Counted from the stretch's first letter, positions 250-62,092 are shown. The stretch: DNA of 64,000 nucleotides from Natator depressus (GCF_965152275.1 NC_134234.1:39330920-39394919); one strand, 5' to 3'. Translations and numbers: made by a program. Notes: a model not told the origin generated them from the letters alone.

Positions 250-880
250 ATGTTTGTCACAGATTCCGTGACTTTCTGTGACCTCCATGACTTCTGCAGC
301 AGCTGGTGTGCCTGGCCTGGGGGCCGCCTGAGCAGCTCAGGTAGTCCCTGGGCCATTCGAATCGGCTGCTGCTGGGGCAGTCTCGCCCCCCCGCGCTCTG
401 CAGCAGGAGTTTTGGGGGGTTGGGGTGTGGGGCAGTGCTTACCTAGGGTGGGCTCCCCAGAACGTCTACAGGAACTCCTCTCCCTCAGTTCCTAGCTCCA
501 TGTGCCAACTCTGCTGGCAGACACCGCCCCAACAGCTCCCATTGGCCGCGGTTCCCAGCCAATGGGAGCTTTAGAACCGGGTATTGGGGCTGAGCGGAGG
601 CAGCATGTGGAGGTCGGGAGCCTGCCCCAGCCCCGCCAACCCTCCCCTTGAGCAGCTGCTGTGCCCCCCAACCGCACCCTCCCCCAGCACCCGCAGTGCC
701 CCCCAGGGCATTCCCCCAAGCCGCCCCCCCCCCCCCTCGCCTCCACCAAGTTTTAGTCAGGGGCATATAGTAAAAGTCATGTACAGGTCATGGGCTGTGA
801 ATTTTTGTTTAGTGCCCATGACATGTCTGTGACTATTACTAAAAATACCCAGGACTAAAACGCAGTAGTCTCTTTTCCAA
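250..880 (+). repeat. GC-rich interspersed repeat with a hairpin tail, copy A.
   Basis: It is homologous to 52380-52930, and both copies end ...gtgaatttttgtttag/acc..tgtctgtgact.ttactaaaaatacccaggactaaaacgcag. Confidence 0.55.
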
Positions 881-1560: not shown

Positions 1561-2589
1561 CCTCCCCTCTTACCCATTACTGCTTACTTTGCTTAAGAGC
1601 CTTTAGTGAGGAACCTTGTCAAAGTAGTGACATCATTTTATTTTTTAATATCTTAACTATTTAGGAGTACCTCTGAATAGCTTTTCTTTAAATATTTACA
1701 TCGTCCTCCAACAAAATTTGTGCATTGACCGATTTAGTTCTCTAACACCTTTATCTGCTTAAAAATGGAAGATAAGAAAAATGAAACCAAGGAAAATTTG
1801 AATTTGATTTGATTTTTCTTTGTCATCAGGAATGTCTTGTTTACCTTATTTGAGTCTCTACAAATAACTCCTCTGTAGTTAATCAGAAGTCATAGAAGGG
1901 CAGACTTGCAATTAGTTACCAAAATGTGAAGCCTAACTAAATCCTGTCTTGTTGTAGGAGTTGCTGTTATCTGACGCAGGGGCTCCTGTTTTGCCACCAT
2001 ATACAACACTAACACTACCTGTTCCAGGAGAACTTTTTCCTGTTAGTGTTAAGCACCTTGTGTCACCTAATGAGGTATATGTTATAAAAGTTGTTTAATA
2101 ACTGTTACAGGATATGACTGCCTCTTTCCAGTCTTGTGGACACTATCATGGAAATATCAGTGTCAGCATACAAGCATTTGTGGTTATAAGTTATTGATAA
2201 TTTAAATCTGTATCAGTTAATTAAATTACAGCATGTCAGATATTTATATAGTGGCTCAAATATTTGGGTGGCAGGAGTGTTTGAGAAATAAATAATCCTG
2301 TCTCTATTCTTTAAAAAATATTCTCAATGTCATGTTCACGTTATAGGCATGACCTTTAAAAAGCAGATGCCTCCTTGCACACACAAGCTATGCTGGCAGG
2401 AGTATATATTATAGTAGGATCACCCATTCTGGATAGGTCAAAGAGTAGGAGCCAGACTAAGGCAATCCACTAGCCCACCTGGTAGCAGGTTAAGAGTGGG
2501 CTAACAACCTACTCCTTTATAAAACAAAGTAATTACAGAAACCTATACAACTGCTCTGTTCAACAAACTCAATCCAACTTAATTCAAAT

Positions 2590-2992
2590 AGACCTAGAAG
2601 AGAGATGAAAACATGAAGTGGCCAAACCCCCAAGGAAGCTACTCTACTGATGAATTTGCTCTCTCCAAAATCCATTACCAAAATTGGTACGTGGAATGTG
2701 TGGACACTAACATGAGGCTGGTAAAACAGTCAAAGTAACAAAAGAAATGGGGAGATACAAATTAGATGTACTTGGCCTAAGTGAAATGAGATGGGTTATA
2801 TCAGGACAAATCACTTTGTCATCTGGACACATCCTACTATATTCTGGATTACCGAATGCCAGTGATATACACAGAGGTGGTGTGGGTCTGATAAAATCAA
2901 GGGGGGCAACTAAAAGCCTGATAGAATGGGCACCAGTTTCAAAAAGGATTAGAATAGTACAGTTTTCATCAAAGTTCCAGAAAGTGTCTGTT
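2590..2992 (+). mobile_element. RTE/L2-like LINE, 5' part, encoding the N-terminus of the AP-endonuclease domain. It is interrupted by the DIRS insertion.
   Basis: Translation in this region reads IGTWNVWTL..GRYKLDVLGLSEMRWVISGQITLSSGHILLYSG..GVGLI..WAPVSKRI..KVSVQC. This is the L1/RTE EN-domain pattern through the QCYAPTN box. Confidence 0.6.
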
Positions 2993-3354
2993 CAGTGTTG
3001 TTCTTCTTCAAGGGGTTGTTCACATCCATTCCACATTAGGTGTGCACGCACTGTGTGCACAAGCGTTGGAAAGTGTTTCCCTTAGCGGCTCCCTGTGGGC
3101 CCCCCGAGTGGCACCACTGCGCCCCGCCTGTATACCCACGCCGGCCCAACCCCCTCCAGTTCCTTCTTACCGTCTGTGGCGACGTTGGAACAACCTCTCT
3201 CTCTCTGGTAGAAGAGCAGTCCCTTAGCCTTAGAGTAGCTGTTATCAGTTCGTTTACATATGGATTGTGAACACTTATGTGATTAGGTGCTTGGAGGCCT
3301 CCAGCACTGGCCCTGGGCCGCGGGGCATGCCACAGGCCCACAGCTTCAAGGCTT

Positions 3355-4928
3355 GTGCCACGTGCCGCAAACCTACGCCAGTTAGTGACCCCCCACGACT
3401 CGTGTCTACGTTGCCTGGGGGACGGACATCAAACTGAAAGGTGTCGGATTTGCAAGGCGTTCAAGCCAAGGACAGGGAAAGAAAGAGACTTTCGACTAAA
3501 GCAACTGTTGATGGAGGCCGCATTGCAGCCAACAGGCCCGGAGTGCCCAATGCTGGCTCAGGCTTCCTCAGTGCATAGTGCCCCGGAGCCGTCGGGAGAC
3601 CCGGCACTGACAAAGCACCGTAAACTGACGGAGTGCCTGGCGAGGCCCCAGCACCGATCGTCCTTCCCCGTGTGGCCCCCGGCACAGCCTAAAGGAAGGC
3701 ATGGCCTCCCAAGGCACCGAGCACCGACAAGAGTGGGAAGGCTGCTGTACCGGCACTGACACAGGCTGTCCTGGCGGTACAAGCCCCACTGAGCCCAGAC
3801 CTAAGTGAGCTCAGTGTGGATGATGGGCTCGAGGGCATAATGGATCAGCCCTCTATGCCTGGCACCTTTGAGGCCACAAAGGACCTCATCGAGCTGTTGG
3901 CGGCGAGCCCGGTGCCATCCCATGGACTCCCGCCCCGGCCTGAGCCCGGGGCCCCTGCCACGGGAGATGGGGAGCAGGAGGACCAACCAGAGGGGTTGAG
4001 CAGCAGCTAACCTCCTCATCTTCCCCCGATGAGGCGGTGGCGGGTACAGAGGTATCCGGCCCTCCACCAATAGACCATAGAGCCCACCAGGAACTGCTGC
4101 GCAGAGTTGCCAAATATTTGGCGTTGCAGGCCGAGGAGACAGTTGAGCAGGAGGACCACATGGTGGACATTTTGAGCCCTGAAGGGCCATCCAGAATAGC
4201 ACTCCCGCTCATTAAGACCATTCAGTCTAACTATAAGACTATATGGCAGACCCCGGCCTCTAGCACTCCAACGGCTAAAGGAGTGGAACGTAAATACTTT
4301 GCCCTGTCTAAGGGCTATGAGGTGCTATTCTTCAGTGCATGCTCCCTAGTGGTTTCAGCGGTGAACAAAAGGGAGTGCCATGGACAGCAGGCCCTGGCCC
4401 CTAAGGCCAAGAAGGCAAAAACGCCTGGACCTTTTTGGTAGAAAGGTACACTCATCTGGGGGCCTTCAGTTGATTATTGCTAACCAGCAGGCCATCCTCA
4501 ACAGGCACAATTTCAACTCCTGGGTGGCTCTGGGGAAGTTGAAGGACAACCTCCCACAATGTTCCCAACAGGAGTTCACAGCCCTGGTGGAGGAGGGAAA
4601 GGCAGTAGCCAAGACCTCTCTCCAGGCTTCTTTGGATTCGGCAGATGTGGCGGCTAGAACAATCGTGTCAGGGGTGGTCATGAGGCGCTCGGCATGGCTC
4701 CAGGAGTCAGGCCTGCCCCCCGAGGTCCAGAATACACTCCAGGACCTCCCCTTTGAAGGGTCTGGGCTCTTCCCGGATCAGACAGATGCGAGGCTGCATA
4801 GCCTCAAGGACTCGCGAGCTACGCTCAAGTTGCTGGGTATGCACACCCCCGCAACCCAGAGGAAGCCTTTTAAGCCCCCTCAACGCCAGTACCAGCCTCG
4901 CCATAGGCATGAACCTTACCGTAGATGA
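3355..4928 (+). pseudogene. DIRS copy 1 gag-like ORF1, split by about 2 frameshifts (3355-3759, 4037-4441, 4380-4928).
   Basis: The Cys/His-knuckle-like motif CLRCLGDGHQTERCRICKAF is followed by LKQLLMEAAL. The homologous region of copy 2 reads CLKCIGEAHIKDRCMICRSF...LKALLMEAAL. Confidence 0.55.
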
Positions 4929-4964
4929 GGCAGGGATAACAGGCAACGGCGCAACAACAATAAT

Positions 4965-6185
4965 GTGCTGGGCCAGAGCCAAGACCAGCACAAACCCCAG
5001 CCGGGCACTAAGCCAGGCTTTGAAGGTGCGCTCAAGGACAGCGTACCAGACCAGTCACCTGATCCGTCCCTTTGCTTCCTGAACCGCCTATCCTGTTTCT
5101 CCCATGCTTGGTCCAACATTACGTCGGACCGTTGGGTCTTACACACGGTACGGAACGGGTACTCGCTGCAGTTCACCTCCCTCCCCCCCTCCAACCGCTC
5201 TTCCCTGTCCCTCTTCAGGGACCCCTCTCACGAGCATCTCCTAGAGGAGGAAGTCCGCTCGCTGCTACGGGCGGGGGCGGTAGAGGCAGTGCCTCACGGC
5301 CTCAGGGGAAAAAGGTTCTACTCCCGGTACTTCCTCATCCCCAAGGCCAAAGGGGGCCTTCGCCCAATCCTAGACCTGCGCGGGCTCAACAAATTCCTGG
5401 TCAAGGCCCACTTCCGCATGGTCTCTCTGGGCACCATCATCCCTTCCCTGGATCCGGGAGACTGGTACGCCGCTCTCAACATGAAGGACGCATGCTTTCA
5501 TATCGCCATTTTCCCAGCACATTGGTGGTTCCTACGCTTCACTGTGGGCCGAGAACATTATCAGTTTGCGGTTCTCCTGTTCGGTCTAGCCGCAGCCCCA
5601 AGGGTGTTCACGAAGTGCATGGCGGTGGTGGCCTTCTTATGGAGGCAGAGAATCCGGGTGTACCTGTACCTCGACGACTGGCTCCTGGTGGGCCACTCCA
5701 AGGCGGAGGTGTGGGGCCATGTGGAGGTGGCCCTGAGATTGTTCCACAAGCTGGGGCTCCTGGTCAACATCCCCAAGTCCACGCTCATACCCACGCAGAG
5801 AGTGGAATTCATGGGGGCAGTCTTGGATGTGGTGCAGGCCAGGGCAAGCCTTCCGGTATCCCGATTCCAGGCTATCCAACAAGCAGTGGCCTCCCTGCGC
5901 CAGTTTCCAACAACAACGGCCAGGTGCTGCCTGTGGCTGGTGGGCCACATGGCAGCACGCACGCACGTGGTCAGGCATGCCAGACTGAGACTCAGGATTC
6001 TGCAGGCGTGGCTCGCTCAGGTGTACTGCCCAGGCAGGGACCCCCTGGAGTTGGTAGTGACAGCCCCAAGGGATGTGCTGGACTCCCTGCTGTGGTGGCA
6101 GTCCCAGCCTGTGGTTTGCGAAGGCATCCCCTTTGCCGCCCCACATCCGGACCTGACGCTGGTGACAGACATGTCAGACCAGGTG
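4965..6185 (+). CDS. DIRS copy 1 reverse transcriptase.
   Basis: The ORF at 4965..6497 carries RPILDLRGLNKF, the FGLAAAPRVFTK motif, and the YLYLDDWLL (YxDD) catalytic box near 5661-5690. The frame is lost near 6185-6210, where the RNase H ORF takes over in another frame. Confidence 0.75.
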
Positions 6186-6207
6186 GGGGGCTTACCTGGG
6201 GGACCTC

Positions 6208-6786
6208 ATGACGCAGGGGTTGTGGCCCGAGGCAGAGTGGTCGCTCCATATCAACGTGAAGGAGCTCAGGGCGGTTCGACTCACCTGCCAGACCTTTCAT
6301 GCCACTCTGAGTGGTCACAGCGTGACGGTTCTGACAGACAACACTACTGCCATGTTTTATGTAACGCCACTCTGTTGCGAGGCTCTCCTCCTCTGGGACC
6401 TTTGCATAGCCTATGCGATTCACCTCGAGGCGTCCTATCTCCCGGGGGTACGGAACGAGCTGGCGGACTCCCTCAGCAGGTCGTACCGCATGCATGAGTG
6501 GACGCTCAGGGCGGACGTCATGCTTTCGCTCTTCCGCAGGTGGGGCTTTCCCCGGGTAGATCTGTTTGCCACCAGGGCCAACGCCCAGTGCCCGCGGTTC
6601 TGCTTGTTCCAGGGCCTCAGCCTGGGCTCACTCGCAGACGTATTTGCGATCCCGTGGAGAGGGGGCTTGATGTATGCCTTCCCCCCGCTCCCCTTGGTGC
6701 ACAAGGTCCTGCTCAAGGTGCGCAGGGACAGGTCGGTGGTGATCCTCATCGCCCCAGCCTGGGCCCGCCAACACTGGTACACATAG
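6208..6786 (+). CDS. DIRS copy 1 RNase H domain ORF.
   Basis: The sequence GLWPEAEWSLHINVKELRAVRL...VTVLTDNTTAMFYV...LADSLSR has the DIRS-type RNase H signature. Confidence 0.65.
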   Translation: MTQGLWPEAEWSLHINVKELRAVRLTCQTFHATLSGHSVTVLTDNTTAMFYVTPLCCEALLLWDLCIAYAIHLEASYLPGVRNELADSLSRSYRMHEWTLRADVMLSLFRRWGFPRVDLFATRANAQCPRFCLFQGLSLGSLADVFAIPWRGGLMYAFPPLPLVHKVLLKVRRDRSVVILIAPAWARQHWYT

Positions 6787-6899
6787 CTCCTAGAGCTGTC
6801 GGTGGACGCCCCAGTAGTCCTGCCCCTACACTGGGACCTCATTGCACAGGACGGCGTGCGGCTTCTCCACCCTGACCTGCAGTCACTGCACCTGATGGC

Positions 6900-7930
6900 A
6901 TGGAGGCTCTGTGGCTAAACGCCCTGCAGAGCCAGTGCTCCCTTCCTGTGCAGCAGATTCTGCTTGGCACTGGAAAGCCCTCTACCAGGGCAGCCTATAT
7001 GGCCAAGTGGAAAAGATTCTCGTGTTGGTGTGAACCCCGACAGGTGCAGCCAGGCCCCGGTGCAGGCCATTCTGGAGTACCTCCTGCACCTCAAGCAGCA
7101 AGGGCTAGCCCCGTCCTCACTCAGAGTGCACCTGGCGGCTATCTCCGCCTTCCATCCAGGGTTCTCGGGGGGCTTGGTGTTTTCCCAACCAATGGTGGGG
7201 CAGTTCCTTAAAGGGTTGGAGAGGGTGTTCCCATACTCCCGCCCCCCAGTCCCTCCATGGAACCTTAATCTGGTCTTTTCTAAACTCATGGGACCCCCTT
7301 TCGAGCCCCTCACTACCTGTTCTCTCCTCCACCTTTCCTGGAAGGTGGCGTTTCTGGTTGCCATTACCTCAGCTAGAAGGGTGTCCAAACTGAGGGCCCT
7401 CACCTCTGAGCCACCATACACAGTATTTCACAAGGACAAGGTGCAACTCCAGCCGCACCCCAAGTTCCTCCCTAAGGTGGTGTCCCAATTCCATCTGGGC
7501 CAGGACATTTGTCTGCCGGTGTTCTTCCCGAAACCCCATACGGACCCGCGTCACCGCAGCTTGCACACCTTGGATGTGCGTCGAGCGCTGGCGTTCTATT
7601 TGGAGTGCACCAAGCCCTTTTGCAAATCCACGCAGCTGTTTGTGGCTGTGGCCAAGAGGTTAAAAGGCCTTCCAGTGTCGGCGCAGCAGATTTAGTCTTG
7701 GATTACAAGCTGCATCCTGGCGTGTTATGAGCTCGCAGGTGTTCCAGCCCCGGCGGTTACAGCCCACTTGACCAAGACGCAGGCGACTTCCACGGCGTTC
7801 CTAGCACAGGTCCCGATCCAGGAGATCTGCAGAGCAGCCACGTGGTCCTCAGTGCACACCTTCACGGCCCACTATGCGGTCAACCAGCAGGCCAGAGAGG
7901 ACGCGGCAGTTGGCAGAGCGGTCCTCCAAG
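6900..7930 (+). pseudogene. DIRS copy 1 tyrosine recombinase (phage-integrase-like), frameshifted into 3 pieces.
   Basis: The N-terminal SAM-like domain reads MAKWKRFSCWC...ILEYLLHLKQQGLAPSSLRVHLAAISAFH. The C-terminal catalytic region at 7700-7930 reads ...QATSTAFLAQVPIQEICRAATWSSVHTFTAHYAV, which places the catalytic Tyr in HxxxHY context. Confidence 0.65.
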
Positions 7931-8321
7931 CAGTTGTTCCATGACTCCTACCCTCCAGAGGTAAGCTTGTAATTCACCAAATGTGGAATGGATGTGAACA
8001 AGCATTTGAAGAAGAAAAAATGGTTACTTACTTTCTCGTAACTGTTGTTCTTTGAGATGTGGTGTTCACGTCCATTCCACCACCCACCCTCTTACCCCTC
8101 TGTTGGAGTCGCCTGCAAGAAGGAACTGGAGGGGATTGGGCCGGCGGCAGAATATATGTGGGGCTCAGTGGCGCCACTCGGGGGGCCCGCTGGCCTGACA
8201 GGAGCTGCTAAGGGAAAAAGTTTCTGACGCTTGTGCATGCGATGCACACACACCTAAAGTGGAATGGACGTGAACAACACCTCTCGAAGAACAACAGTTA
8301 TGAGAAAGTAAGTAACTGTTT

Positions 8322-10300
8322 TTTCTCCAACAAATCAAACTAACCAAGAGTAAAACAAAAAAAACCCACCAACCACCTTGTACAAGCAACTACATAACAA
8401 ACTAGATAAAATCCCCTCCTAGTAACTGGAGAAATTAATGCTAAAGTAGGGAGCAACAACACTGGCAGGGAAGTAAATATGGGGAAACAAGGCCTTGGGG
8501 AAACAAATTAAAATGATTAAATGTTTGCTGATTTTTGTGGAATGAATGATCTGGTCATTGGAGGAACCATCTTCCCTCACCATACTATTCATAAAATAAC
8601 TTGAAGGTCAGCAGATCACAGAACAGGAAACCAAATTACATTATACCAACAAAACAAGGAACCAAACCACATTACAATTCTGCACAAATGTAATAGAACT
8701 TCAGAAGATGTAGGTAGCAGGAATGGGACAGGTGTGAGAATGGACCACACACTAACTAAATTGAGAATAAAAATAAAACCAAAGAATAGATCTGAACAGC
8801 AGAGACACCACATTATAAGGTCACCCAACTAAAATGCAGCAAGACTTTAGAATTGCTCTAGCAAATAGATACCAGGTGCTTGAAGATGAGACAATAGAAA
8901 GCAAATGGAAACAGGTAAAGGATACTTTCACTAAAACATGTAAAGAAATGCTGGGATTCAGGAAGAAACATCACAATGAAAGGATATATGAGAGGAAAGA
9001 TGCAAAATTAAACTGAAACAAAAACACAGACACACTGACTCCAGGAAGAATATGCAGTAAAGAACAAAGAGGACAAAATAGTGTTAGGAAAGGCAAATGA
9101 AACTTTGTAGACGAAATAGCAAGAGATGCACAAACTGCTGCAGCACACAATGACATGAAGACACTGTACAACATCATTAAACAGTTATCAGGAAGAATGT
9201 TCCAAGTAAGATAATTACATATTATAAAGAATAGGAGTACTTGTGGCACCTTGGAGACTAACCAATTTATTTGAGCATAAGCTTTCGTGAGCTACAGCTC
9301 ACTTCATCGGATATATGCATCCGATGAAGTGAGCTGTAGCTCACGAAAGCTTATGCTCAGATAAATTGGTTAGTCTCTAAGGTGCCACAAGTACTCCTTT
9401 TCTTTTTGCAAATACAGACTAACACGGCTGTTACTCTGAAACCTGATATTATAAAGAATAAAGAAAGCGATAGATTCAAGGTAAGAAGAAGAATAGGCAG
9501 GATTCAGACAGGAGAGATCATGTATAGATCAAATAGTAATCCTACATAGCATCATAGAACTTGTGATCTAATGACAGAAGTTAGAGGACCTTGACTTTGC
9601 AGATGACATTAACTTGCTATCCCATTCTCATAGAGACATGAGTGCCAAAACAAATGATTTACAGGCCTATCCACAAGTAGTAGGATTGAAAATCAACAGT
9701 GTAAAAACTTAGTCATGAGAATCAACACACAACAAGAAACACCAGTTGCATTTTCTGGGGCCGACCTAGATGAAATCCGATATATCACATACCTTGTCAG
9801 CATTTTAAGTACAACAGATGGAATAGAGGAAGACATTAAAACCAGAATAGTGAAAGCAAGATGTATTGTTGTAACTACAGTCGATCTGGAGAAACAGAAA
9901 TCTTACGCTCCAACTAAACTTCAAATATTTAACCATTATAAAATCAGTCTTGCTACATGGTGTTGAAACTTGGAGACTTATGAAAAACTTTACTATCTAA
10001 ACTCTGTCTTCATCAACAGCTGCCTTAGACAAATCCTCAATATTAGATGGGCAGAAAAAATCACAAGCAACAAACTCTGAAGGAGGATGAAACAGAAGCC
10101 AGTAGGACTGGAAATTACAGAACAAAAATGGAGATGGCTAGGACATTCATGAAGGGAAAGACCCAATAACATAACAAGATAGGCATTGAACTGGAACCCC
10201 CAGGGCAGGAGGCAGTGAGTTAGAACCACAACAGAAGCAGAATTGAAACCTATCTGAATAAAGTGAAAAGAAGCAAAGACTGCCACAGGAGACTAGCAAA
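8322..10300 (+). mobile_element. RTE/L2-like LINE, continuation. It covers the rest of the EN domain and the RT C-terminal region, and itself carries a hairpin insertion at 9240-9420.
   Basis: It resumes exactly with ..SPTNQ...FY.QL...LDKIP...LVTGEINAKVG...GETN. Further on come HKITWRSADHRTGNQID and a 3' RT tail (..LRQILNIRWAEKITSNKL..LGHS). Confidence 0.6.
9240..9420. repeat. Hairpin (palindromic) PLE-terminal-repeat element, inserted in the RTE LINE.
   Basis: The palindrome is near-perfect, with centre ...catcggatatatgcatccgatg..., and carries the family tail cagactaacacggctg..actctgaaac. Confidence 0.7.
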
Positions 10301-12289
10301 GATGGAAGGCCGTGGTGAAAGCCCTATGTTCCACATGAAATACAGAGGTGTAAGAGAAGAAAGAAACTTGCACTCACAGATGTTCCCTCAGAAATGTATT
10401 TGGACTATGGGACGACTTGTTGTTGTTGTTTTTTTTTTTTTTTCAACCCGGTCTGATTTTTTTTTTATTATTATTCATTTGATGTAATAGACAATAAGTA
10501 ATTGGATTTGATCACTGTGGCAGCATACTGATTTCCTCTCCTGTATTTTCCTTCTTATATTGAAGTGGTGAAACATTCTTATGCCACAATGTTCTGTTTT
10601 GTGGGCTTTTAGTATATTACCATTTTTCTTTTGTTGGCTTCCTATTCAGCATTTTTTTTCCTCTCAGTCCACACAGCTGCTCCTGGTACTGCCCCTTCTG
10701 GACAAGGGCCTAATCTTATGCCCACTGTAATCAAATGAAAGACTCCCACACACTTCAGTGAATTTTGGATCAGACCCCAAACCACATACCAGTGAGAAGC
10801 TGGTTCAGTCATAAAATCTGAAGGAGGGATTGGTTTACATTGAGCTATTAAAGTTATGTTGCTTGGTAAATCTATCAGTGGCTCTGTTACTCTCTTTAAT
10901 GACTCTTTTTGTATACTGCTCTAGCTTTCTACATGAAACCATGGAAGTTTCTTGGTAGAGCTAATGGTGTTAAAATATAAGACTGAATTTAGAACGTGAT
11001 GTTAAGGTGCTTAAATACCTTAGTGATGGGCTTCCAGTTTAAGAATTAAAATAGAATATATATTCTTAATTTAATTATCTAACAAATGCTTTTGGTTCCT
11101 TGTCCATGAATAAGCTGAACGTCTATATGCTTTTGATCAGGATAAATATTCCATTATAAAGCCACTGCTAGAAACTCTACTCATATTCCTTTAATTTTGG
11201 GCAGCAGTTATGTATATGCAACGTCAGTATGAAATGCATTACCATGATTAGAAAAGTAATAGTACGTTGTAATTAGAATCTTTCTTAATCAAGGGTGGAT
11301 GGTAATGGTGAGTTCTTTTCCAAATTCTGTCCCCTGTCTATATTCTACAACATGGGTATGCATGCACTCCATATGCCTGCGACTGGAGATTTGATGCAGA
11401 CCATAGCTTCGTATATTAATGAAAGTTTATCTCTCTGTATTACAATTATTTGCTTATTTATACTGATGCACACATTTATACTAGTAGGCCATATTAAAAA
11501 TAAAATTTAGATGAAATAGAATGTTTTCATGCTTTGCAAGAGAGGGAAACCATTTTAGAAGTTTTTTCCATGAATTTCAGATTGAATCTGTTTAAATTTT
11601 AATTTTCCATAGTGGCAAATCCAGAGGAGTGGGAGGGAATCCTGAATTAGACCAAGCCTCTGTGGAAGTCTAACACCTGCACACTTTCGTATATGCAGGG
11701 CTTATGTTACCATGGTTAGAAGGTGTGGCATTAATAAGTAGTAACTGGTTGCCTTGAACTAAACCCTGAGTAGTAAAATGTAAAACTAATTTTAAGGTGT
11801 GGAGGAAAGAAGAATTAGGGGGGTGGGGCAGTGTTTCTTAGTGACAAATCTTTCCAAGATAAAAACCGTTATCCTCTTAATATCCCTTGATCACTTATTA
11901 CACGTGGCAGTTAATTCTGATGTGTCTGTGAAAGCTGTAATCTTTGTCTTTTATAAAACTCTTCTGCCTTTTTTAGATGTACATTTGCCTTGAATCAGCA
12001 GAGGGCCTTAACCAGCAGAGCGATACAGAAGATAGTGGTGTCAGCTGGGATTTGGAATCTGAGAGTCTAGATCAAGTCCTGAAGCACTGTAATCAGAATG
12101 TGGAGTCTCTTCCTTTTCTAACAGATTTTAGAACAGGTATTTTTGCAAATTTGTTTGCCCTGTTATACCTTACAGAAGTACAAACCTATTGAGTAAATAC
12201 TTCTATTTTATGTGTGTCTATATTTTTAAATAAAACTTAAAACTATAAATTCTTTTGGGAGTGTCAGAGTCACAAGAGACAATAGTGGT

Positions 12290-15200
12290 GGTTCTTAGAG
12301 TGTTCATATCAACTCCATGTTAGGTGTGTGCGCTCCCATGTGCACAGTTGCCAGAGATTTTTCCCTTAGTGGTATCCATAGGGCCATCCCTAGCGTCCCC
12401 TGGAGTCCCGTTCTCATGCTCCAGTATAAGGGGCACTGCTGGCCCCAGACCCCCTCAGTTCCTTCTTATCAGCCGTGACAGTTGCTGAAATGACTTCTTT
12501 TTTGCGCTTGCAAGTTCTCCTAGTGGTTTTTCAACTCTGTTATTCTTGTATATAGTTAGGACTTAGTTGTTAGCAGTTAGTTAAGTTGAAGTAGATAGTG
12601 GTCGCATTCCAGGATGTTGTCCCAGGGACAGGGCATGCCCTGGTCCCCGTGTTTCAAACCGTGTGCCACCTGTCATAAGCCCATGCCAGTGAGCAACCCA
12701 CATGTGAGCTGCTTAAAGTGCATCGGAGAAGCCCACATTAAAGACAGGTGCATGATCTGCAGGAGCTTCAGGCCACACACACACAAAGGGACAGGGACAT
12801 TCATCTGAAGGCCCTGCTAATGGAAGCAGCGCTCAGACTGGCCTTGGAGCTGTCCCACTCTGATTCAGCGCTGAGCACTTCGGCCTCAGTACGGAGTGCT
12901 CCCCCAGCATCATGGTCTGCTTGGCACCATTCACCATCTTCAGTGCCAAGGAAGCGGCACAAGAAAATGTGCACTGAAAGATGGCACTCACCTGTGTCAA
13001 AAAAGGATAAGAGGTGAGTGGCTGACAAGATGAGACCCCCTGCTGGGCCACTCGTCCTCCCCAGAGCTGTGGTTGATGGCAGTTGAGCCCAGTCAGGGAA
13101 CCACCACTGACTCCTGGGAGCAGTTGAGGCACCCTATGCTTGAGATCCCCCTTGACACCAGAGGCATTTCAGGCAGCAGAGGACCTGATGGCCCTCCCAG
13201 TACTGCACAGACCATGAGGCCACTCTTCATTGAAGACTGCTCCCTCCAGAGGGAAACCCCCTCATAGGTCGGCCGCAGTGGTCGCCAACCCAACACCGGT
13301 CCCCAGCATCCCGGCACTGGTCTCCAGTTCCGCAGCCTAGGTCACCAGCTTCATGACACCTGTCCCCAACTCATTGGCATCAGTCACTGGAAGCATGGCA
13401 CTGGTCTCCATCCCCCCGGCACCATTCCCTGACTCCACATCATATCCAGCAGGTGGGAACGGCAACGGCTCCGCCGTGGTCTCCAAGGGAGGAATACTCA
13501 TCGGAGAGGAAGAGGAATCCATCCCCCCACCAAGGAGACCCCACTTTTCTTACGCACTGGACTTTGGTGGTGTTCCTGCTGTGGGCACTTGGCCACCGGG
13601 GCAGTGGCCAGTACACTGGCAATATTGGAACCCGTGAGGGGTTCCTTCCAATGCCAGGCCCCCACTCCCATCTGTCATCCACAGCCACATCTGAGAAGTG
13701 AGTCTTGGCAACACCCCAGCCAGTACAGGACCCCGACTCGGACTCCAAACCCAGTACCAAGACCCCAGCAGTGGCTTAAGTGGAGGTGACCCCAGTAGCA
13801 GAGGACTTTCCAGCTCCTCCTGTGGTGGTGCATCTTCCTCATCCCCAGATTAGGCAGTTGTGGGTTCCACCCCCTGCCACTGGACGACTTCCAGACTCAC
13901 CAAGATCTCCTTAAACAGGTTGCCACGAATTTGGGGCTAGAGGCAGAGGAACTGAAGGAGCCCATGGACAGCCTCTTTGATATTTTTAGCTGCAACAGCC
14001 CCCTCTAAGGTTGCACTGCCAGTCTATGATGGGGTGCTAAAACTGGTTAAAGCACTGGCAGACCCCATCTTCTCTGCCCCAACTTCGAAAAGGGCAGAGA
14101 AAAAAGCCCTGGCTAAGGGGTATGAATACATGTACTTGCACCCTCCTCCTGGGTCCCTGGTGGTTTCCACCGCAAATGAGCGGGACAGACAGGGTCAGGC
14201 AAGCGTCATGTCTAAAAATAAGGATGCGGAGAGACTTGACTTGTTCGGCAGAAAGGTATAGTCAACAGCTAGCCTACACCTCCAGATCTCCAACCAGCTG
14301 GCACTGCTGGGAAGATACAGTTATAACATTTGGGACTCTATGGCCAAGTTCAAAGACTCTCTGCCTCAGGAGTCAAGGTAAGAATTCCTGGTCATTCTGG
14401 AGGAAGGCAAGGCGGTAGCCAGGGCCTCTTTTTAGGCTGCCTTGGATGTGGCTGACTCGGTGGCCAGGTTGATGGTCTTGGAAGTGTCCATGCGGTGCAG
14501 CTCGTGGTTGTAGTCCTTGGGCCTTTCTCATGAGGTGCAGCGGTTGGTCCAAGATCTCCCTTTCAAGGGCAATGCATTGTTCTTGGAGCAGATGGACACC
14601 AAGCTGCACAACCTGAAGGACTCAAGGGCCATGCTGCGATCTCCGGGCCTTTACACGCCCCCAGCCTCCAGAAGGCACTTCTGGCCGCAGCCACATCCAA
14701 GATTTTTGGGGCCTTTTAGACACGAGCCCTACAAGAAAAAAGGGAAGGGTTATAAGCGCAGACCTTGGCCTGCCAGTCAGGCTTGGGCCAATACCTGGCT
14801 GGCCCGAGACAGGCCTTTCGAGAGTGCAACCAAGGACGGCCTACTGGACTTAACCCAGGATCCACCATCCCCCTTTTGTTTTTGGACTGTTTATTTCCAT
14901 TCTGTACTGTGTCCCCCAAATAACTTCAGACCACTGGGTGCTTTCCACCATGACAGTTGGGTACACCCTGCAGTTTTTATCCATTCCTCCCTCCCAACCC
15001 ACATACCTGTCCCTATTCTGGGACCCTTCTCACGAGCATCTCCTCATCCAGGAGGTAGAAACCCTCCTACGTGTGGGGAGCATAAAGGAAGTTGCTTGAC
15101 ACTTGAGAGGGAAAAGGGTTCTACTCCTGATATTTCCTAATCGTAAAGGCCAAAGGGGCCTCAGGCCTTTTAGACCTGCATTGCCTCAACAAATATCTCA

Positions 15201-16950
15201 AGAAGTTCAAATTCCGCATGGTCTCCCTGGCATCCATCTTTTCCCTCCCTGGATCCGGGAAACTGGTACTCAAACTAAAGGATGTTTATTTCCACATCTC
15301 CATCTTCCATGGTCACAGGTGATTCCTATGATTCATGGTGGGCGAGCGCCACTACCAATTCACCACATTCTGTTTCAGACTGGCGTCAGCCCCAAGGGTT
15401 TTCACAAAGTGTATGGCAGTAGTTTAAGCTTACCTAAGACATCGAGGTGTACATATCTACCCCTATTTCAACGACTGGTTAGTCAAGGATCATTCATGAG
15501 CTCAGGTTCAACACAGTGTGAGCAAAGTATGGGCCACCTGTCAAGAGCTGGACCTGCTGATAAATTAGCAGAAATGCACTCTGATTCCAATTCAGAGGCT
15601 AGAGTTTATAGGAACAGTGCTCAACTCTATTCGGGCCAGAGCCTACCTGCCAGAAGCCTAGTTCTGGTGATGTCTGAGCTAATTGCCCCTGTCAGATCCC
15701 ACCCACTCATGACTGCTCTGGTATGCCTCAGGCTGCTCGGTCATATATCAGCATGCACTTACATGGTGCAGTACACACAGTTGTACCCCAGACCTCTTCA
15801 GATGTGGCTGGTGTTAGTCTACTCCCCCCAGAAGGCACCATTTGGACTTAGTTATTACAATCCCTTTGGCCATTCTAGCATCATTAACTTGATGATCAGA
15901 TCCACAGTCAATAATGACCAGGGTTCCTTTTGCCACCCCGTGCTCATTGGTGACATGAATCTCAGATGGGTTAGACCTGGGGTGAGGAGCCCACTTCTGC
16001 AGTCACAGTACCCAGGGCCTCTAGTCACAGGGAGAACTCTCCCTGCACATAAATGTCAGGAAACTCAGGGCAATTCGCTTGGCCTGCCGGGTGTTCCTTC
16101 TCTACCTGTCGGGCAAGGTAGTGCAGGTCCTGACAGACAATACAGACGTGATGTTTTATGTCAACGAGAATGGGGGAGTTTGCTCCTCGGCCCTGTGCCA
16201 GGAGGCTCTTCAATTGTGGGACTTCTGCATGCAACACGTTCATCTCAAGGCATCGCACTTTCCAGGGGACCGGAATACACTGGCAGATCACCTTAGCAGG
16301 TCCTTTTCTTCTCACCACGAGTGGTCCCTCCACCCGGAGGTAATCAGCTCTGCTCAATGCATGGGCTTGGCAACGGTTACCAGTCAGACATCTTCCTACA
16401 GCCGTGGTCAAGGGATCTGCTGTATGCCTTTCCACATATACCGTTGGTACACAAGGTCCTCTTGAAAATCAAGAGGGACAAGGCAAAGGTAATCTTGATT
16501 GCCCTGGCATGGCCGTGCCAGCACTGGTTTAGCATGCTCCTGGACCTTTCCGTAGTAGCTTCACTAGAGCTCCTCGTGTGTCCGGATTTGATCTTACAGA
16601 ACCAAGGCCAGCTACTCCACCCAAACCTTGTGTCCCTGCACCTGGCAGCTGTGTGGCTGAACCAGGAGTAGCAAGCCTGCTCAGAGCATGTCCTCTATCA
16701 GAGCGATCTACTTGGCCAAGTGGAAGCGCTTCACTTCTTGGGCCTGGCGGATCAGCTGAGCAGAGATGTAATGGAACTGCGTGAGTGGTCATTTAAACAA
16801 ATCCACTGTAGACAAGATCTTTACCCTGTGGGGTTAAGATTTGCTCACAACAATACAAAATGCAAAATGTCATCTGTTCTCTTCAAGAGCCGAGAGAAAG
16901 TCTATCCATATCAGACACCTTTCTCCTCATTAGGGTAGAAGTTCTGCTCT
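12290..16950 (+). mobile_element. DIRS-like retrotransposon, copy 2. It is degenerate with many frameshifts and is 3'-truncated.
   Basis: The left ITR at 12296-12365 is homologous to the copy 1 left ITR. The gag Cys motif is at 12614-12808. RT remnants lie at 15103-16296 and RNase H at 16079-16465 (VLTDNTDVMFYVNENG...LADHLSRS). The YR N-terminus (AKWKRFTSWA) is at about 16720. Confidence 0.65.
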
Positions 16951-22649: not shown

Positions 22650-24290
22650 CATTTTGTGACAAAGGGAGAAAAGTGTACAACACAAACCAACGTGAGGACA
22701 GCAGTGGCAGCTCCAGCAAAACACAGAAGCCAAAAATATTACAAAACTTATTTCAACCAGGCTTTACATGGAGCAGGTCCAGCGATGCACCAAGGCCTCA
22801 GTGTGGCAAAGTACTGTCAAACAACAGTATGCAGCCATGGAAGCTACACTGACATCTTAAAGCAAGCTAGCCTACCTTAATATATAAATTTGTAGAGTTT
22901 TTTTGAGAGAAAGCTCAATGAGTTAACAGGACAAAAAGCATTGTGGATATGTACAGCACTGTCACCATGAATGCTACAGAGGCTTCTTACCATGTGGCTT
23001 TGTGCATTGCCAAAGCGGTTAAACCAGACAACATAAGTGAGAAACTACTTCCAGCTGCAATGGATATATGCACAGTGATTATAGGAGAGAAAGCAGCATC
23101 ACACCTAGATGTGATCGTACTTTCTAACGATAGTTTCACCCCATATTGCAGAGATGGTCACTGATGTAAAAAAGCAGCTCCTAGAAAGTCTTTGTCAGAG
23201 CCCATATTATTCAGTTCAGATTGATGAGTCTATCGAGCTATCAAATGCTACCCAGCTACTCATGCATATTTGTTTTGCTACAGCAACGAATTAAAAGAGG
23301 AATTTCTGTTTTGCCATTCATTTCCAACACAAGCAACTGGTGAAGAGCTTTTTAATCTATTAAATATTTTTGTTCAAGGCACAGGCCTTGATTGGGGACT
23401 TTTTGGAATTTGTAGCAATGGAGCACAGTCTGTGGCAGGACAGCATAGCAGGCTTGTGACAAAGGTACAAGCATGCCCACAGCAACCTAGAATCATTGTA
23501 TGATCCACAGATAGGCATTGGATGCTAAGAAGATGGCAGAGGAGCTCAGCAATGTTCTTTCAGTTGCAGTAAAAAATTGTAAACTTTATAAAGTCGCACC
23601 AGATTAATTCAAGGGGTTTTGCCGTTTTGTGCAAAGAGATGGAGGCAAACTTCACACAGTTGTTACATGCAGAAGTTTGTTGGCTGTCCAGGAGATATCT
23701 TTGTTGTCATATCTGGCTGAGATATTCAAGCGACTGAATTCTCTGAATGTGTCACTTCAGGCACAAGATGCAAATGTTTTAATTGCTAATGTTCCAATAG
23801 CAGCATTCATTAACAAACTTGAACTGTGGTCTTCATGTGTACAGCAGGGATCTGTTTCCATATTTTCAACATGGAGGACATTGCGCAACAGTGCGATCTG
23901 TCAGTTGACAGTATCCAAGATGTAATTGTTTAGCACTTAAGGGATCTGTAGGAGCAGTTTCGTGAATACTTTCCTGAAGTGGGCAAAGACAAATGTAATC
24001 AATAGATCAGGAACTCATTCAACTTTAAGCCAAACCCCACAAATATGCTGTTTTCAAAAGAAGAGGAAAACATTATCAACCTGTCAGGCAACAAGGAACT
24101 GCAGCACAAATTTTCACAAATGAAAAGCTTTTGGTTATCAGTGGGATCTGAATTTTATGAGTTAACACACCAGTCTTTTAAAGGACTCATTCCTTTTTCA
24201 TCCCTCTATGTGTGTGAGTCAGGCTTCTCAGCATTAACCACAATCATAACAAAAACAACAAGGAGTCCAGAGGCACCTTAAAGACTAACA
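22650..24290 (+). mobile_element. Decayed hAT (Charlie/Buster-like) DNA transposon, transposase remnant.
   Basis: The ORF fragments read ASYHVALCIAKAVKPDNISEKLLPAAMDICTVIIGEKAASHLDVIVLSNDSF and KSFWLSV..EFYELT...LIPFSSLYVCESGFSALTTIITKTTRS. The second is the hAT C-terminal dimerisation motif. Multiple stops show it is non-functional. Confidence 0.6.
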
Positions 24291-24480
24291 GATTTATTTG
24301 AGCATAAGCTTTCATGGGTAAAAATCTCTCTTCTTCAGAAGCATGGGGTGAAAGTTACAGATGCAGACATAGTGAGGTGTTTACCCACAAAAGCTTATGC
24401 TCAAATAAATCTGTCAGTCTTTAAGGTGCCACCGGACTCCTTGTTGTTTTTGTGGATACAGACTAACACGGCTATCCCCT
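24258..24480. repeat. Hairpin PLE-terminal-repeat element with an approximately 75-bp loop.
   Basis: The arms cttaaagactaacagatttatttgagcataagctttcatgggt and acccacaaaagcttatgctcaaataaatctgtcagtctttaaggtgccac are inverted copies, and the element ends cagactaacacggct. Confidence 0.6.
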
Positions 24481-25077
24481 GATACTTGAAATCATAACAC
24501 AGAATCACTCCCAGCTTTCTATTGAAGATGACTTACATCTCTTCTTTTCTACACTCCAACCCCGAATTCTACTACTTTGTATGGTGAGGAAACAAACACA
24601 CTCCTCCCCCTGAAAAGATAGGACTGATGGATATTATACTGAATTAACATATCATTGTTTGGTGTCCTGTTCCCTAAAATGTTTGAAGTTTTATTTTCAT
24701 TGCGTCCATTTGTATTTTAAAATTAACACTTCTGAAATTCATATGGATCTATAATTGATCAAATACCTTCTATCCTTTTATTCATTTTTTGCAACACACA
24801 GGATTTTCAATTTGTTATATTGTTTTAGTAAACTGTGGGGAGGCAGTTATTTTTTTTTATAGCTCAGGGAGGCTCACTATGACAAAGTTTGATAACCCCT
24901 GCCTTAACATATAACTGTGCCTCACCTAGCAAATACCTGTACCTGTAGGCTACTGTAGGGCAGTACTTCAATGCCTATTCAGTTAGGACTTTTGAGTCCC
25001 AACTTTCCTTTGAGGTACTGCTTGTCAGACTATCCCATAAGCAGGAATATGCAGAGGACACTCAAAGAAATAACCAA

Positions 25078-61447: not shown

Positions 61448-61550
61448 GGAGTACTTATGGCACCTTAGAGACTAACAAATTTATTAGAGCATAAGATTTC
61501 GTGAGCTACAGCTCACTTCATCGGATGCATAGAATGGAACATATAGTAAG

Positions 61551-61930: not shown

Positions 61931-62092
61931 AGTTTTTAAAATGTTATTTTAAATAATGCAGTGTTTACCTGGGACTAATCCAGTAGTTTTGTGATAGTGT
62001 GTGAAAACAGTACTCAACATTTTAAGTAGAATATTAAAATTAAAGTGTTCAATTTCCTTAAAGTATACTGTATACTTTACTTCTCCACTTAC

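What the first reader, a model, noticed from the sequence alone, without database searches (positions are those of the whole stretch)
2590..10300. Near-intact DIRS retrotransposon inserted precisely into the endonuclease domain of an RTE/L2-like LINE
The LINE EN reading frame stops at ..KVSVQC at 2992 and resumes at ..SPTNQ..FY.QL..LDKIP..GEINAKVG at 8322. The interval between holds a complete DIRS architecture: ITRs, an ICR complementary to both termini, gag, RT (YLDD), RNase H and YR. The only damage I can see is one RT-to-RH frameshift and about 4 frameshifts in gag and YR, so this looks like a young insertion. Full-length DIRS copies with both ITRs and the ICR preserved are uncommon in amniote assemblies. 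This one could serve as a reference or consensus copy for the family.
Basis: partly seen in the sequence, partly recalled or inferred. Interest (0 to 1): 0.6.

Follow-up and report, generated by a model that had tools for sequence, protein, structure and literature searches.

The report
Decayed DIRS retrotransposon nested in RTE LINE
A 5.3-kb DIRS1-like retrotransposon (a mobile element that integrates with a tyrosine recombinase) sits cleanly inside the endonuclease-coding part of an older, dead RTE-type LINE in what is almost certainly a turtle genome; this is an ordinary nested repeat, and the copy is neither young nor rare.

Summary
Window 3001-8325 is a DIRS1-like retrotransposon. [quoted passage not shown] It carries gag (LAP2alpha-like), RT (YLDD), RNase H, a methyltransferase-like region and a Cre-like tyrosine recombinase. 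It begins and ends with TTC, and the ICR junction is GAA, as the published integration model predicts. With one TTC kept, the flanks rejoin in frame (KVSVQCCSPTNQ). The joined protein aligns without a break to endonuclease proteins (E=6e-64).

The host LINE groups with RTE-type elements; nothing points to L2.

- The copy is not near-intact. It lacks 675 bp of gag and 24 bp of RNase H. It has about five frameshifts and two stops of its own, and a mutated recombinase motif.
- It is not young. Terminus-to-ICR mismatches are 10 of 109, against 0 of 100 in a painted-turtle copy with intact ORF1 and ORF2. CpG o/e is 0.51 against 0.82.
- It is not rare. The window holds two more DIRS-like remnants. 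Five other full-length elements came from a few protein look-ups. The literature reports hundreds of copies in turtles.

Ordinary and already known. Interest is low.

The parts
2617..3000 (+). Left part of the host RTE-type LINE: N-terminal half of the AP-endonuclease domain (…IGTWNVWTL…KVSVQC). It is degraded, with stops and one frameshift near 2710. A weak, non-significant extension reaches about 2480.
   Evidence: tblastn of P0001 aa 15-149 at 2617-3022; protein search E=6e-64; alignment A1.
3001..8325 (+). The DIRS1-like retrotransposon, 5325 bp. It starts with TTC (3001-3003) and ends with TTC (8323-8325). One of the two TTC copies is attributed to the LINE target.
   Evidence: Homology to an independent Dermochelys copy starts at window 2996 (the last 5 nt of the left flank, TGTTG, also match) and ends at window 8325. 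The ICR predicts the junction …TTTTTTC/TTCTTCTTC….
3001..3168 (+). Left inverted terminal repeat. The first 42 nt are also complementary to the left ICR. It contains the motif TGTTCACATCCATTCCAC, which is shared by both ITRs and both ICR halves.
   Evidence: the repeat finder I2, I3, I4, D6, I9; BLAST; alignment.
3327..3909 (+). ORF1 (gag) N-terminal part with the cysteine-rich motif CATCRKP…CLRCLGDGHQTERCRIC. Frame changes lie near 3390-3410 and near 3750. A 675-bp deletion of the arginine/serine-rich region sits at 3909.
   Evidence: tblastn with the Chrysemys ORF1; Dermochelys L001 6314-6984 encodes the missing RS-rich segment.
4010..4928 (+). LAP2alpha-like gag region. It has a frameshift near 4395-4417 and ends at a TGA (4926-4928) that the Dermochelys copy shares.
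   Evidence: Pfam LAP2alpha E=4e-4 and 8e-4; tblastn P0026 aa 39-167 and 172 onward; L001 ORF 7361-8020 ends at the same YRR-stop.
4995..6182 (+). Reverse transcriptase. The Pfam RVT_1 match covers 5337-5819 and YLDD lies at 5667-5678. A 1-nt difference at 5019 relative to the Dermochelys ORF2 start breaks the frame.
   Evidence: Pfam E=2e-15; 80% aa identity to Dermochelys P0029 and 62% to Chrysemys P0026.
6165..6480 (+). RNase H. The frameshift lies at about 6183, inside TDMSDQ/GWGAYL. A 24-bp in-frame deletion at 6365 removes the conserved NKQGG…S motif.
   Evidence: Translations; tblastn with L001 RH and P0026; gap list; weak Pfam RT_RNaseH hit.
6490..6915 (+). Methyltransferase-like C-terminal region of pol. 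It is interrupted by a TAG at 6784-6786 (WYT*LLEL).
   Evidence: Weak Pfam Dam match, E=0.065 here and 0.02 in P0026. PF05869 is precomputed on several homologues. Aligned to P0026 aa 767-1034.
6900..7944 (+). Tyrosine recombinase ORF, overlapping the end of pol. It has a frameshift at about 7049 and a TAG at 7693-7695. SARRVSKL lies at 7369-7392. AHLTKT at 7762-7779 is HSTR in the Dermochelys copy. The catalytic-Tyr context TAHYAV lies at 7864-7881.
   Evidence: Pfam Phage_int_SAM_4 E=4e-5; Cre-family recombinases (Tre, Cre) are the best PDB sequence matches; 85% aa identity to the L001 recombinase ORF.
7975..8080 (+). Internal complementary region. The left ICR is 7975-8016 and the right ICR is 8014-8080. 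They overlap on the 3-bp circular junction GAA (8014-8016).
   Evidence: the repeat finder I1, I4; alignments 38/42 and 61/67; junction bases.
8117..8325 (+). Right terminus. The right ITR is 8117-8294. The right extension (about 8295-8325) pairs only with the right ICR.
   Evidence: The extension is defined as in PMC3266345.
8326..10431 (+). Right part of the host RTE-type LINE: the rest of the endonuclease (SPTNQ…GEINAKVG…), a linker, and RT remnants with about 155 aa missing. The C-terminus reads …KALCST. A (TTG)4 run at the 3' end is followed by a T-run. It is heavily degraded, with CpG o/e 0.165.
   Evidence: tblastn with P0001, P0007, P0019, P0024, P0025; translations; 3' end sequence.
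9233..9445 (.). A 213-bp hairpin (palindromic) interspersed repeat inserted in the LINE's RT region. It is flanked by a perfect 14-bp direct repeat ATATTATAAAGAAT (9219-9232 and 9446-9459). It is a second, independent insertion in the same LINE.
   Evidence: Self-BLAST shows arms 94% complementary and at least six other copies in the window; the direct repeat was verified.

Best explanation
An RTE-clade LINE inserted here first and decayed. Later, a DIRS1-like retrotransposon integrated into the LINE's endonuclease-coding region.

Inferred mechanism, following the published DIRS model. The element's RNA was reverse-transcribed. Its ends were rebuilt on the internal complementary region, giving a circle whose junction reads …CTGTTTT-TTC-TTCTTCGAG…. 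The element's Cre-like tyrosine recombinase then recombined that TTC with a TTC in the LINE (…CAG TGT TG[T TC]T CCA…). This placed the element between two TTC copies, with no target-site duplication and no loss of LINE sequence.

Since insertion the copy has decayed: a 675-bp gag deletion, a 24-bp RNase H deletion, several frameshifts, two stops, CpG loss and divergence between termini and ICR. It is now an inactive fossil, probably tens of millions of years old.

Shown here: the anatomy, the in-frame rejoining of the LINE, the TTC/TTC/GAA relationship, the decay, and the existence of same-family and related copies in other turtles.

Inferred: the circular intermediate, the recombination step and the absolute age.
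For: Anatomy:
- ITRs and a bipartite ICR are present.
- A shared 18-nt motif occurs four times (D6 and I9).
- The element begins with TTC and ends with TTC, and the ICR halves overlap on GAA.
- This matches the structure and the 3-bp junction rule described in PMC3266345 and restated in PMC7192593.

Proteins:
- RVT_1 at E=2e-15.
- 137 homologues, the best being turtle DIRS-type pol proteins: Dermochelys 80% and Chrysemys 62% over 100% of the query.
- LAP2alpha-like gag, as reported for turtle DIRS1-like elements (PMC4495291).
- SAM-like integrase domain and Cre-like C-terminal motifs.

Independent copies:
- Dermochelys L001 5393-11856 is the same family at 80-86% nt identity. Its homology with the window element begins 5 nt upstream of the TTC start (window 2996; the last 5 flank bases TGTTG also match) and ends exactly at 8325.
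- Across 9 turtle insertions the first trinucleotide is TTC in 7 and TTG in 1. The last is TTC in 7, TTA in 1 and TTG in 1.
- One Chrysemys element sits inside the right extension of an older DIRS at TTA.

LINE continuity:
- Protein search E=6e-64 with 96-99% coverage.
- Gap-free codon continuity across the junction.

Decay and relative age.
Against: - No empty orthologous site could be examined, so the insertion is inferred from the structure alone.
- No Repbase or Dfam comparison was possible. Family names, copy number and the RTE assignment rest on protein relatives and on source-given names.
- Pfam alone barely detects the degraded endonuclease (E=0.025 for the left half, nothing for the right half).
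- The catalytic domain of the recombinase does not reach Pfam thresholds.
- The age estimate assumes that termini and ICR are identical at insertion (a theoretical point in PMC3266345). It rests on only 109 nt and is inflated by CpG decay.
- The circular double-stranded intermediate has not been demonstrated directly, even in Dictyostelium (PMC7192593).
Confidence: 0.93

Rival explanations
1. One reading: a young, nearly intact and possibly recently active DIRS copy that could serve as the family reference.
For: - All domains, both ITRs and the ICR are recognisable.
- CpG o/e of 0.51 is well above the LINE's 0.165 and the window's 0.26.
- The longest stop-free stretch is 522 aa.
Against: - 675-bp gag deletion, 24-bp RNase H deletion, about five frameshifts of its own, two stops, and HSTR changed to HLTK.
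- 10 of 109 terminus-to-ICR mismatches and ITRs at 140 of 178. The Chrysemys copy L002 shows 0 of 100 and 181 of 187, has intact 418-aa and 1034-aa ORFs, and has CpG o/e of 0.82.
- K2P distance of 0.11-0.135 to same-family copies.
Confidence: 0.04
2. The two LINE pieces are unrelated fragments that happen to flank the DIRS, or the DIRS insertion came with a rearrangement. On this view it is not a clean insertion into one LINE.
For: Each half alone is weakly recognisable by Pfam. The LINE carries other lesions, including an internal RT deletion and a hairpin-repeat insertion.
Against: - The halves abut at consecutive residues of the same endonuclease domain, on the same strand and in the same frame.
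- No codon is lost once one TTC is counted: QC-C-SPTN against QCYAPTN in the best relative.
- The break coincides to the base with the DIRS ends predicted by the ICR and by an independent copy.
Confidence: 0.02
3. The inserted element belongs to another class: an LTR retrotransposon or endogenous retrovirus, or a Ngaro/PAT-type tyrosine-recombinase element.
For: The RT/RNase H region is Gypsy-like. Several database relatives are mislabelled 'Ty3 Gag-Pol'.
Against: - The terminal repeats are inverted, not direct.
- There is a bipartite ICR adjacent to the right ITR.
- There is a methyltransferase-like region, which PMC3266345 says is absent from Ngaro and VIPER.
- There is a tyrosine recombinase in place of a DDE integrase.
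- No split direct repeats were found.
Confidence: 0.01

Closest known systems
DIRS1-like retrotransposons of vertebrates, as annotated by Piednoël et al. 2011 (PMC3266345), and the turtle DIRS1-like elements with LAP2alpha-like gag described by Abascal et al. 2015 (PMC4495291)
   Same: - ITRs; a left and a right ICR overlapping on a 3-bp junction; a right extension.
- The same trinucleotide at both ends, complementary to the junction.
- No target-site duplication.
- Domain content: gag with a LAP2alpha-like domain, RT-RH-MT pol, and an overlapping recombinase ORF.
- Size class of 5.5-6.3 kb when intact.
   Different: - The terminal trinucleotide here is TTC (junction GAA). Most elements tabulated in 2011 have NTT. 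This is a family-level detail, not a structural difference.
- This particular copy is deleted and mutated.
Same-family copy in Dermochelys coriacea (L001, CM019943.2) and a partial copy in Lepidochelys kempii (L003)
   Same: 80-88% nucleotide identity along the whole element. The termini, the ICR and the gag/pol TGA are the same.
   Different: They lie at different genomic sites. The Dermochelys copy keeps the 675-bp RS-rich gag segment and the HSTR motif, but carries a CR1 fragment inside its RT.
Dictyostelium DIRS-1, the founding member (Cappello et al. 1985; Malicki et al. 2020, PMC7192593)
   Same: Overall architecture and the ICR-dependent replication logic. It also tends to land in other repeats, and DIRS-into-DIRS nesting was seen in locus L002.
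   Different: Distant sequence, different ORF arrangement and ITR length. Dictyostelium DIRS-1 clusters at centromeres.
RTE-clade LINEs (RTE-1/BovB group). Turtle genomes are reported to be rich in CR1 and RTE LINEs (PMC4054807)
   Same: - An AP-endonuclease with the N-terminal IGTWNVRTL…GK motif, followed by an RT.
- Nearest named relatives are 'craniofacial development protein 2-like', a name derived from the RTE-1 endonuclease domain.
- A short 3' region ending in a simple repeat.
   Different: - Only 35-44% aa identity to the nearest database proteins, which are sea slug, coral and unnamed assemblies.
- It is not BovB itself, as far as can be judged.
- The copy is old, internally deleted and interrupted twice.

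Membership tests
DIRS1-like retrotransposons (order DIRS) | Inverted terminal repeats bounding the element | tested here: met
   3001-3168 against 8117-8294: 78-84% complementary, E=1e-37.
DIRS1-like retrotransposons (order DIRS) | Two internal complementary regions near the 3' end, complementary to the start of the left terminus and the end of the right terminus, overlapping on a 3-bp circular junction | tested here: met
   Left ICR 7975-8016 (38/42) and right ICR 8014-8080 (61/67), overlapping on GAA at 8014-8016.
DIRS1-like retrotransposons (order DIRS) | The element begins and ends with the same trinucleotide, complementary to the junction, and there is no target-site duplication | tested here: met
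   TTC at 3001-3003 and at 8323-8325. The LINE rejoins in frame with one TTC and shows no other duplication. The pattern recurs in 9 turtle insertions.
DIRS1-like retrotransposons (order DIRS) | A right extension that pairs only with the right ICR | tested here: met
   The last 31 or so nt (8295-8325) have no partner in the left terminus but pair with 8014-8044.
DIRS1-like retrotransposons (order DIRS) | Gypsy-related RT/RNase H with a YxDD motif | tested here: met
   RVT_1 E=2e-15; YLDD at 5667-5678; RNase H aligned to P0026 and L001.
DIRS1-like retrotransposons (order DIRS) | A methyltransferase-like domain after RNase H (distinguishes DIRS1/PAT from Ngaro/VIPER) | tested here: inconclusive
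   The region aligns to the homologous part of P0026 at 58% identity. Its Pfam Dam match is sub-threshold (E=0.065; E=0.02 in P0026). PF05869 is recorded on four distant homologues.
DIRS1-like retrotransposons (order DIRS) | A tyrosine recombinase instead of a DDE integrase, with catalytic R…HxxR…Y | tested here: met
   SAM-like domain E=4e-5. Cre-family recombinases (Tre, Cre) are the best PDB matches, and GHSARVG…W…Y aligns to AHLTKTQ…W…HY. The R of SARR and the Y are present. HxxR is mutated to HLTK in this copy but reads HSTR in the same-family L001.
RTE-clade LINE | An N-terminal AP-type endonuclease followed by an RT in one reading frame | tested here: met
   Endonuclease: E=6e-64, and the relatives carry PF03372/PF14529. 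RT remnants match P0019, P0024 and P0025 downstream on the same strand.
RTE-clade LINE | Groups with RTE references rather than L2/CR1 in an RT or EN phylogeny | not tested
   No reference LINE library was available. Indirect support only: all named hits are 'craniofacial development protein 2-like' or EEP/RT proteins of the same group, and none carries a CR1 or L2 name. The CFDP2 name traces to the RTE-1 endonuclease (reference listed in PMC4613681).
RTE-clade LINE | A short 3' UTR ending in a simple-repeat tail rather than poly(A) | tested here: inconclusive
   The ORF ends near 10330 and (TTG)4 at about 10420-10431 is followed by a T-run. The exact 3' end is not defined without a consensus.
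   None of the 25 significant hits carries a CR1 or L2 name, and the five informative names are 'craniofacial development protein 2-like' (2) or EEP-family (3). However, most of the 25 hits are unnamed, and no CR1 or L2 reference was compared directly.

The most novel reading that the evidence does not exclude
The recombinase of this DIRS family may choose pseudo-attachment sites longer than the 3-bp TTC. The only two full-length insertions of this family that I could examine are the window copy and the Dermochelys copy. Both lie immediately 3' of TGTTG: window GTGTTG|TTC and Dermochelys CTGTTGA|TTC. This resembles the element's own right end, CTGTTTTTTC. If real, it would give a testable target-site definition for a eukaryotic retrotransposon tyrosine recombinase, whose specificity has not been studied experimentally (PMC7192593). 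Six insertions from related turtle families show no such motif, so chance is the more likely explanation.
Probability: 0.08. Interest if true: 0.35.

Novelty: already known. Interest (0 to 1): 0.1.

Why it matters
It matters little beyond repeat annotation. The locus is a clean textbook example of DIRS integration without target-site duplication. Because the target is a reading frame, the junction can be read to the base, and it agrees with the 3-bp circular-junction model. It also gives a relative order of events at this site: first the RTE LINE, then the DIRS and the hairpin repeat, whose order relative to each other is not resolved. It does not open a new question. DIRS1-like elements with LAP2alpha-like gag are already documented in turtles in hundreds of copies, and better-preserved copies are available as references.

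Tried and rejected
1. Pfam on the two LINE halves and on the joined protein gave only a weak Exo_endo_phos hit for the left half. The question was settled instead by the large protein search and alignment.
2. I looked for other copies of the LINE inside the window to get a nucleotide consensus across the junction. There are none.
3. I tried to identify the source genome or an orthologous locus through an exact look-up of the 510-aa window ORF. It is not on record. The look-up for P0141 also failed. No tool searches turtle genomes by DNA, so the empty-site test was not possible.
4. I considered that the left boundary lies at 2996, with TGTTG belonging to the element. BLAST homology to L001 starts there, and the ITR complement reads CTGTTGTTCTTC. 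I rejected this for three reasons. The ICR junction has no TGTTG. The LINE frame needs exactly those bases (TGT TG = Cys plus the start of the Tyr-to-Cys codon, matching QCY in the best relative). Other insertions lack the motif.
5. I looked for an extended target motif across 8 left flanks and 9 right flanks. There is no consensus beyond TTN. A CAG/CTG within 8 nt upstream occurs in 5 of 8 flanks, but this was noticed post hoc and is not convincing.
6. I considered the gag/pol TGA at 4926-4928 as a lesion. The Dermochelys copy shares it, so it is probably ancestral to the family, either as read-through or with an overlapping ORF2 start at 4909.
7. Nothing in the question depended on them.

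Full report
**What is there**

The region 2400-10450 is AT-rich LINE sequence (GC about 0.37, CpG o/e 0.165). It is interrupted by a GC-rich block (GC 0.58, CpG o/e 0.51) between about 3000 and 8330.

- Terminal inverted repeats at 3001-3168 and 8117-8294, 78-84% complementary (BLAST E=1e-37).
- An internal segment, 7975-8080, with two halves.
- The left half (7975-8016) is the reverse complement of the first 42 nt of the element (38/42).
- The right half (8014-8080) is the reverse complement of the last 67 nt (61/67).
- The last 31 or so nt (8295-8325) pair only with this internal segment. They form the 'right extension' of the DIRS literature.
- An 18-nt motif, TGTTCAC(A/G)TCCATTCCAC, occurs in both ITRs and both ICR halves (D6 and I9).

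All of this matches the structure described for DIRS1-like elements by Piednoël et al. 2011 (PMC3266345).

**Coding content**

Conceptual translation, Pfam, a search of 5.8 billion proteins and tblastn with intact relatives give the following layout:
- ORF1/gag, 3327-4928. It has a cysteine-rich N-terminus and a LAP2alpha-like region (E=4e-4 on one ORF; E=8e-4 on the reconstructed gag).
- RT. RVT_1 E=2e-15; YLDD at 5667-5678.
- RNase H, from 6165.
- A methyltransferase-like tail, to 6915. The Dam match is weak (E=0.065).
- An overlapping tyrosine-recombinase ORF, 6900-7944. Its SAM-like domain scores E=4e-5. Its best PDB sequence matches are Cre-family recombinases (Tre E=0.01, Cre E=0.07), and the Cre motifs GHSARVG…W…Y align to AHLTKTQ…W…HY.

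The best relatives are all turtle proteins:
- Dermochelys coriacea, 80% aa identity.
- Lepidochelys kempii, 69-71%.
- Chrysemys picta, 62-68%, including a 1034-aa gag-pol ORF that covers 100% of the query.

The LAP2alpha-like gag is the known hallmark of these vertebrate DIRS1-like elements (Abascal et al. 2015, PMC4495291).

**Exact boundaries and mode of insertion**

An independent full-length copy of the same family lies in a Dermochelys intron (L001 5393-11856; 80-86% nt identity). Homology with the window element ends at window 8325. It begins at window 2996, because the last five bases of the left flank (TGTTG) also match.

Read as its reverse complement, the ICR gives the predicted circle junction …AAC(CA/TG)TTTT-TTC-TTCTTCAA…. 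The element's left end is TTC-TTCTTCAAGG and its right end is …CTGTTTT-TTC. So the element begins (3001-3003) and ends (8323-8325) with TTC, and the two ICR halves overlap on GAA at 8014-8016.

This is the published rule: the same trinucleotide at both ends, complementary to the 3-bp circular junction, with integration by recombination with an identical genomic trinucleotide and no target-site duplication (PMC3266345; PMC7192593).

I checked the rule on other turtle elements fetched through their annotated proteins (Chrysemys, Chelydra, Macrochelys, Malaclemys, Natator, Lepidochelys). Across nine independent insertions:
- The first unit is TTC in seven and TTG in one.
- The last is TTC in seven, TTA in one and TTG in one.
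- One Chrysemys element is inserted at TTA inside the right extension of an older DIRS. That is a DIRS-into-DIRS nesting.

**The host LINE**

The flanks, joined conceptually, hit 25 endonuclease/exonuclease/phosphatase proteins. The best scores E=6e-64, with 96-99% query coverage. The multiple alignment runs straight through the junction: KVS-VQCxSPTNQ against KVTILQCYAPTN.

At nucleotide level, window …3000 plus one TTC plus 8326… reads …GTT CAG TGT TGT TCT CCA ACA AAT…, which translates to VQCCSPTN. This is in frame with no base lost or gained.

The LINE belongs with RTE-type elements:
- Its relatives carry the typical IGTWNVRTL…GK start.
- The only informative names among them are 'craniofacial development protein 2-like'. 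That name traces to the RTE-1 endonuclease domain captured by bovine Bcnt (Iwashita et al. 2003, listed in PMC4613681).
- The painted turtle genome is reported to be rich in CR1 and RTE LINEs (PMC4054807).

None of the named hits points to L2 or CR1, though most hits are unnamed. A formal phylogeny against reference LINEs could not be done here.

The LINE is old and broken:
- It has many stops.
- About 155 aa of the RT are missing.
- A 213-bp hairpin repeat sits at 9233-9445, with a perfect 14-bp flanking duplication.
- Firm homology starts at 2617. A weak extension reaches about 2480.
- The 3' end is near 10431, at (TTG)4.

**How intact and how old is the DIRS copy?**

It is less intact and older than proposed. 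Compared with the Dermochelys copy and with Chrysemys ORFs, the window copy shows:
- A missing 675 bp of gag, the RS-rich segment that both relatives have (deletion point 3909).
- A missing 24 bp of RNase H, which removes the conserved NKQGG…S motif (6365).
- Frame changes near 3390-3410, 3750, 4417, 5019, 6183 and 7049.
- Premature TAG codons at 6784-6786 and 7693-7695.
- HLTK where the family has the recombinase motif HSTR.

The TGA between gag and pol (4926-4928) is shared with the Dermochelys copy. So is a frame change near 4005. Both are probably ancestral features.

The same metrics on other turtle copies give a calibration:

| Metric | Chrysemys L002 | Window copy |
|---|---|---|
| Terminus-to-ICR mismatches | 0 of 100 | 10 of 109 |
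| ITR identity | 181 of 187 | 140 of 178 |
| CpG o/e | 0.82 | 0.51 |
| ORFs | intact 418-aa ORF1 and 1034-aa ORF2 | longest stop-free stretch 522 aa |

Kimura distances between the window copy and the two same-family copies are 0.11-0.135 over all sites and 0.07-0.10 over non-CpG sites.

Termini and ICR are theoretically identical at insertion (PMC3266345). On that basis the within-copy divergence is about 0.05 substitutions per site per lineage. [quoted passage not shown] That implies tens of millions of years, possibly about 100 million. The uncertainty is wide: only 109 nt, CpG inflation, and dependence on the model.

The copy is clearly younger than its host LINE, but it is not young.

**Rarity**

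The claim that such copies are uncommon in amniotes is not supported:
- The window contains two more DIRS-like remnants, at about 12300-16660 and 33613-35334.
- A handful of protein look-ups returned five other distinct full-length turtle elements with both ITRs and an ICR, beyond the same-family Dermochelys copy.
- Piednoël et al. counted 775 DIRS1-like sequences in Anolis.
- Abascal et al. found 642 RT_DIRS1-bearing loci among 792 LAP2alpha-like regions in painted turtle, and confirmed ITRs manually.

**Mechanism, with status of each step**

Shown here:
- The order of events. The LINE came first, since it is split cleanly.
- The TTC/TTC/GAA relationship.
- The absence of a target duplication.
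- The subsequent decay.

Inferred from the established DIRS model (Cappello 1985; Goodwin and Poulter 2001; PMC3266345; ICR requirement shown experimentally in PMC7192593):
- Reverse transcription of a sub-genomic RNA.
- Restoration and joining of the ends on the ICR to give a circular DNA.
- Tyrosine-recombinase crossover between the junction TTC and a genomic TTC.

Asymmetric cases in other loci (TTC/TTA, TTC/TTG, TTG/TTC) suggest that only TT must match. The third base is then inherited from either partner. This is compatible with a short heteroduplex overlap, but it is an inference.

**Verdict**

This is an ordinary, already-known kind of repeat nesting in a turtle-type genome.

The only mildly unexpected detail is that both same-family insertions lie just after TGTTG. 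Six insertions of related families lack the motif, so I treat it as probable chance.

Noticed in passing
window 12300-16660 (+): A second, more diverged DIRS-like element. P0026 aa 57-1015 aligns by tblastn at 13877-16659 (30-58% aa identity, several frameshifts). It is about 70% nt identical to the RT of the first element. An ITR-like match lies at 12301-12369.
   Followed up: partly
window 33613-35334 (+): A third DIRS-like fragment covering RT/RNase H (P0026 aa 410-915). It is interrupted near 34081-34399 by copies of the hairpin repeat.
   Followed up: no
window 9233-9445; also 24250-24497, 34081-34399, 43367-43494, 44307-44399, 61436-61531, 61801-61941: A roughly 213-bp interspersed repeat that is an almost perfect hairpin (arms 94% complementary). 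Inside the LINE it is flanked by a perfect 14-bp duplication, ATATTATAAAGAAT. Related copies (84-86%) occur in the Dermochelys locus L001. The class was not determined. The 14-bp duplication looks more like retroposition than a cut-and-paste MITE.
   Followed up: partly
window 54101-55822 (-): A 573-aa open reading frame that does not look like a repeat (lysine/serine/glutamate-rich, …DLMMKLFPSLKPKQK…). It is probably a large coding exon of a host gene. It could identify the locus and species.
   Followed up: no
window 401-800: A short GC-rich stretch (GC 0.64) in otherwise AT-rich sequence. It may be a CpG island or another repeat fragment.
   Followed up: no
L002 3938-4232 and 10463 onward (Chrysemys picta CM062323.1): The Chrysemys element with intact ORF1 and ORF2 is itself inserted at TTA inside the right extension of an older DIRS. 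The left flank reads …CGAAGAACAACAG. The right flank, CAGTACAGG…, continues the older element's extension as predicted by its ICR. This is DIRS-into-DIRS nesting, as described for Dictyostelium.
   Followed up: partly
L001 8871-9296 (Dermochelys coriacea CM019943.2): The same-family Dermochelys copy carries a 427-bp CR1 3'-end fragment, in antisense orientation, inside its RT. NCBI's gene model for P0029 treats it as an intron.
   Followed up: partly
window 4909-5025 and L001 8001-8130: In this family the gag frame ends at a shared TGA, and an ATG 17 nt upstream opens an overlapping +1 frame. In the Dermochelys copy that frame runs on into RT. The related Chrysemys family instead has one fused gag-pol ORF. 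The ORF1/ORF2 arrangement therefore differs between closely related turtle DIRS families.
   Followed up: partly
window 2996-3000 and L001 5388-5392: Both insertions of this family are preceded by TGTTG (window GTGTTG|TTC; Dermochelys CTGTTGA|TTC). This resembles the element's own right end, CTGTTTTTTC. It is not seen at six insertions of related families.
   Followed up: yes
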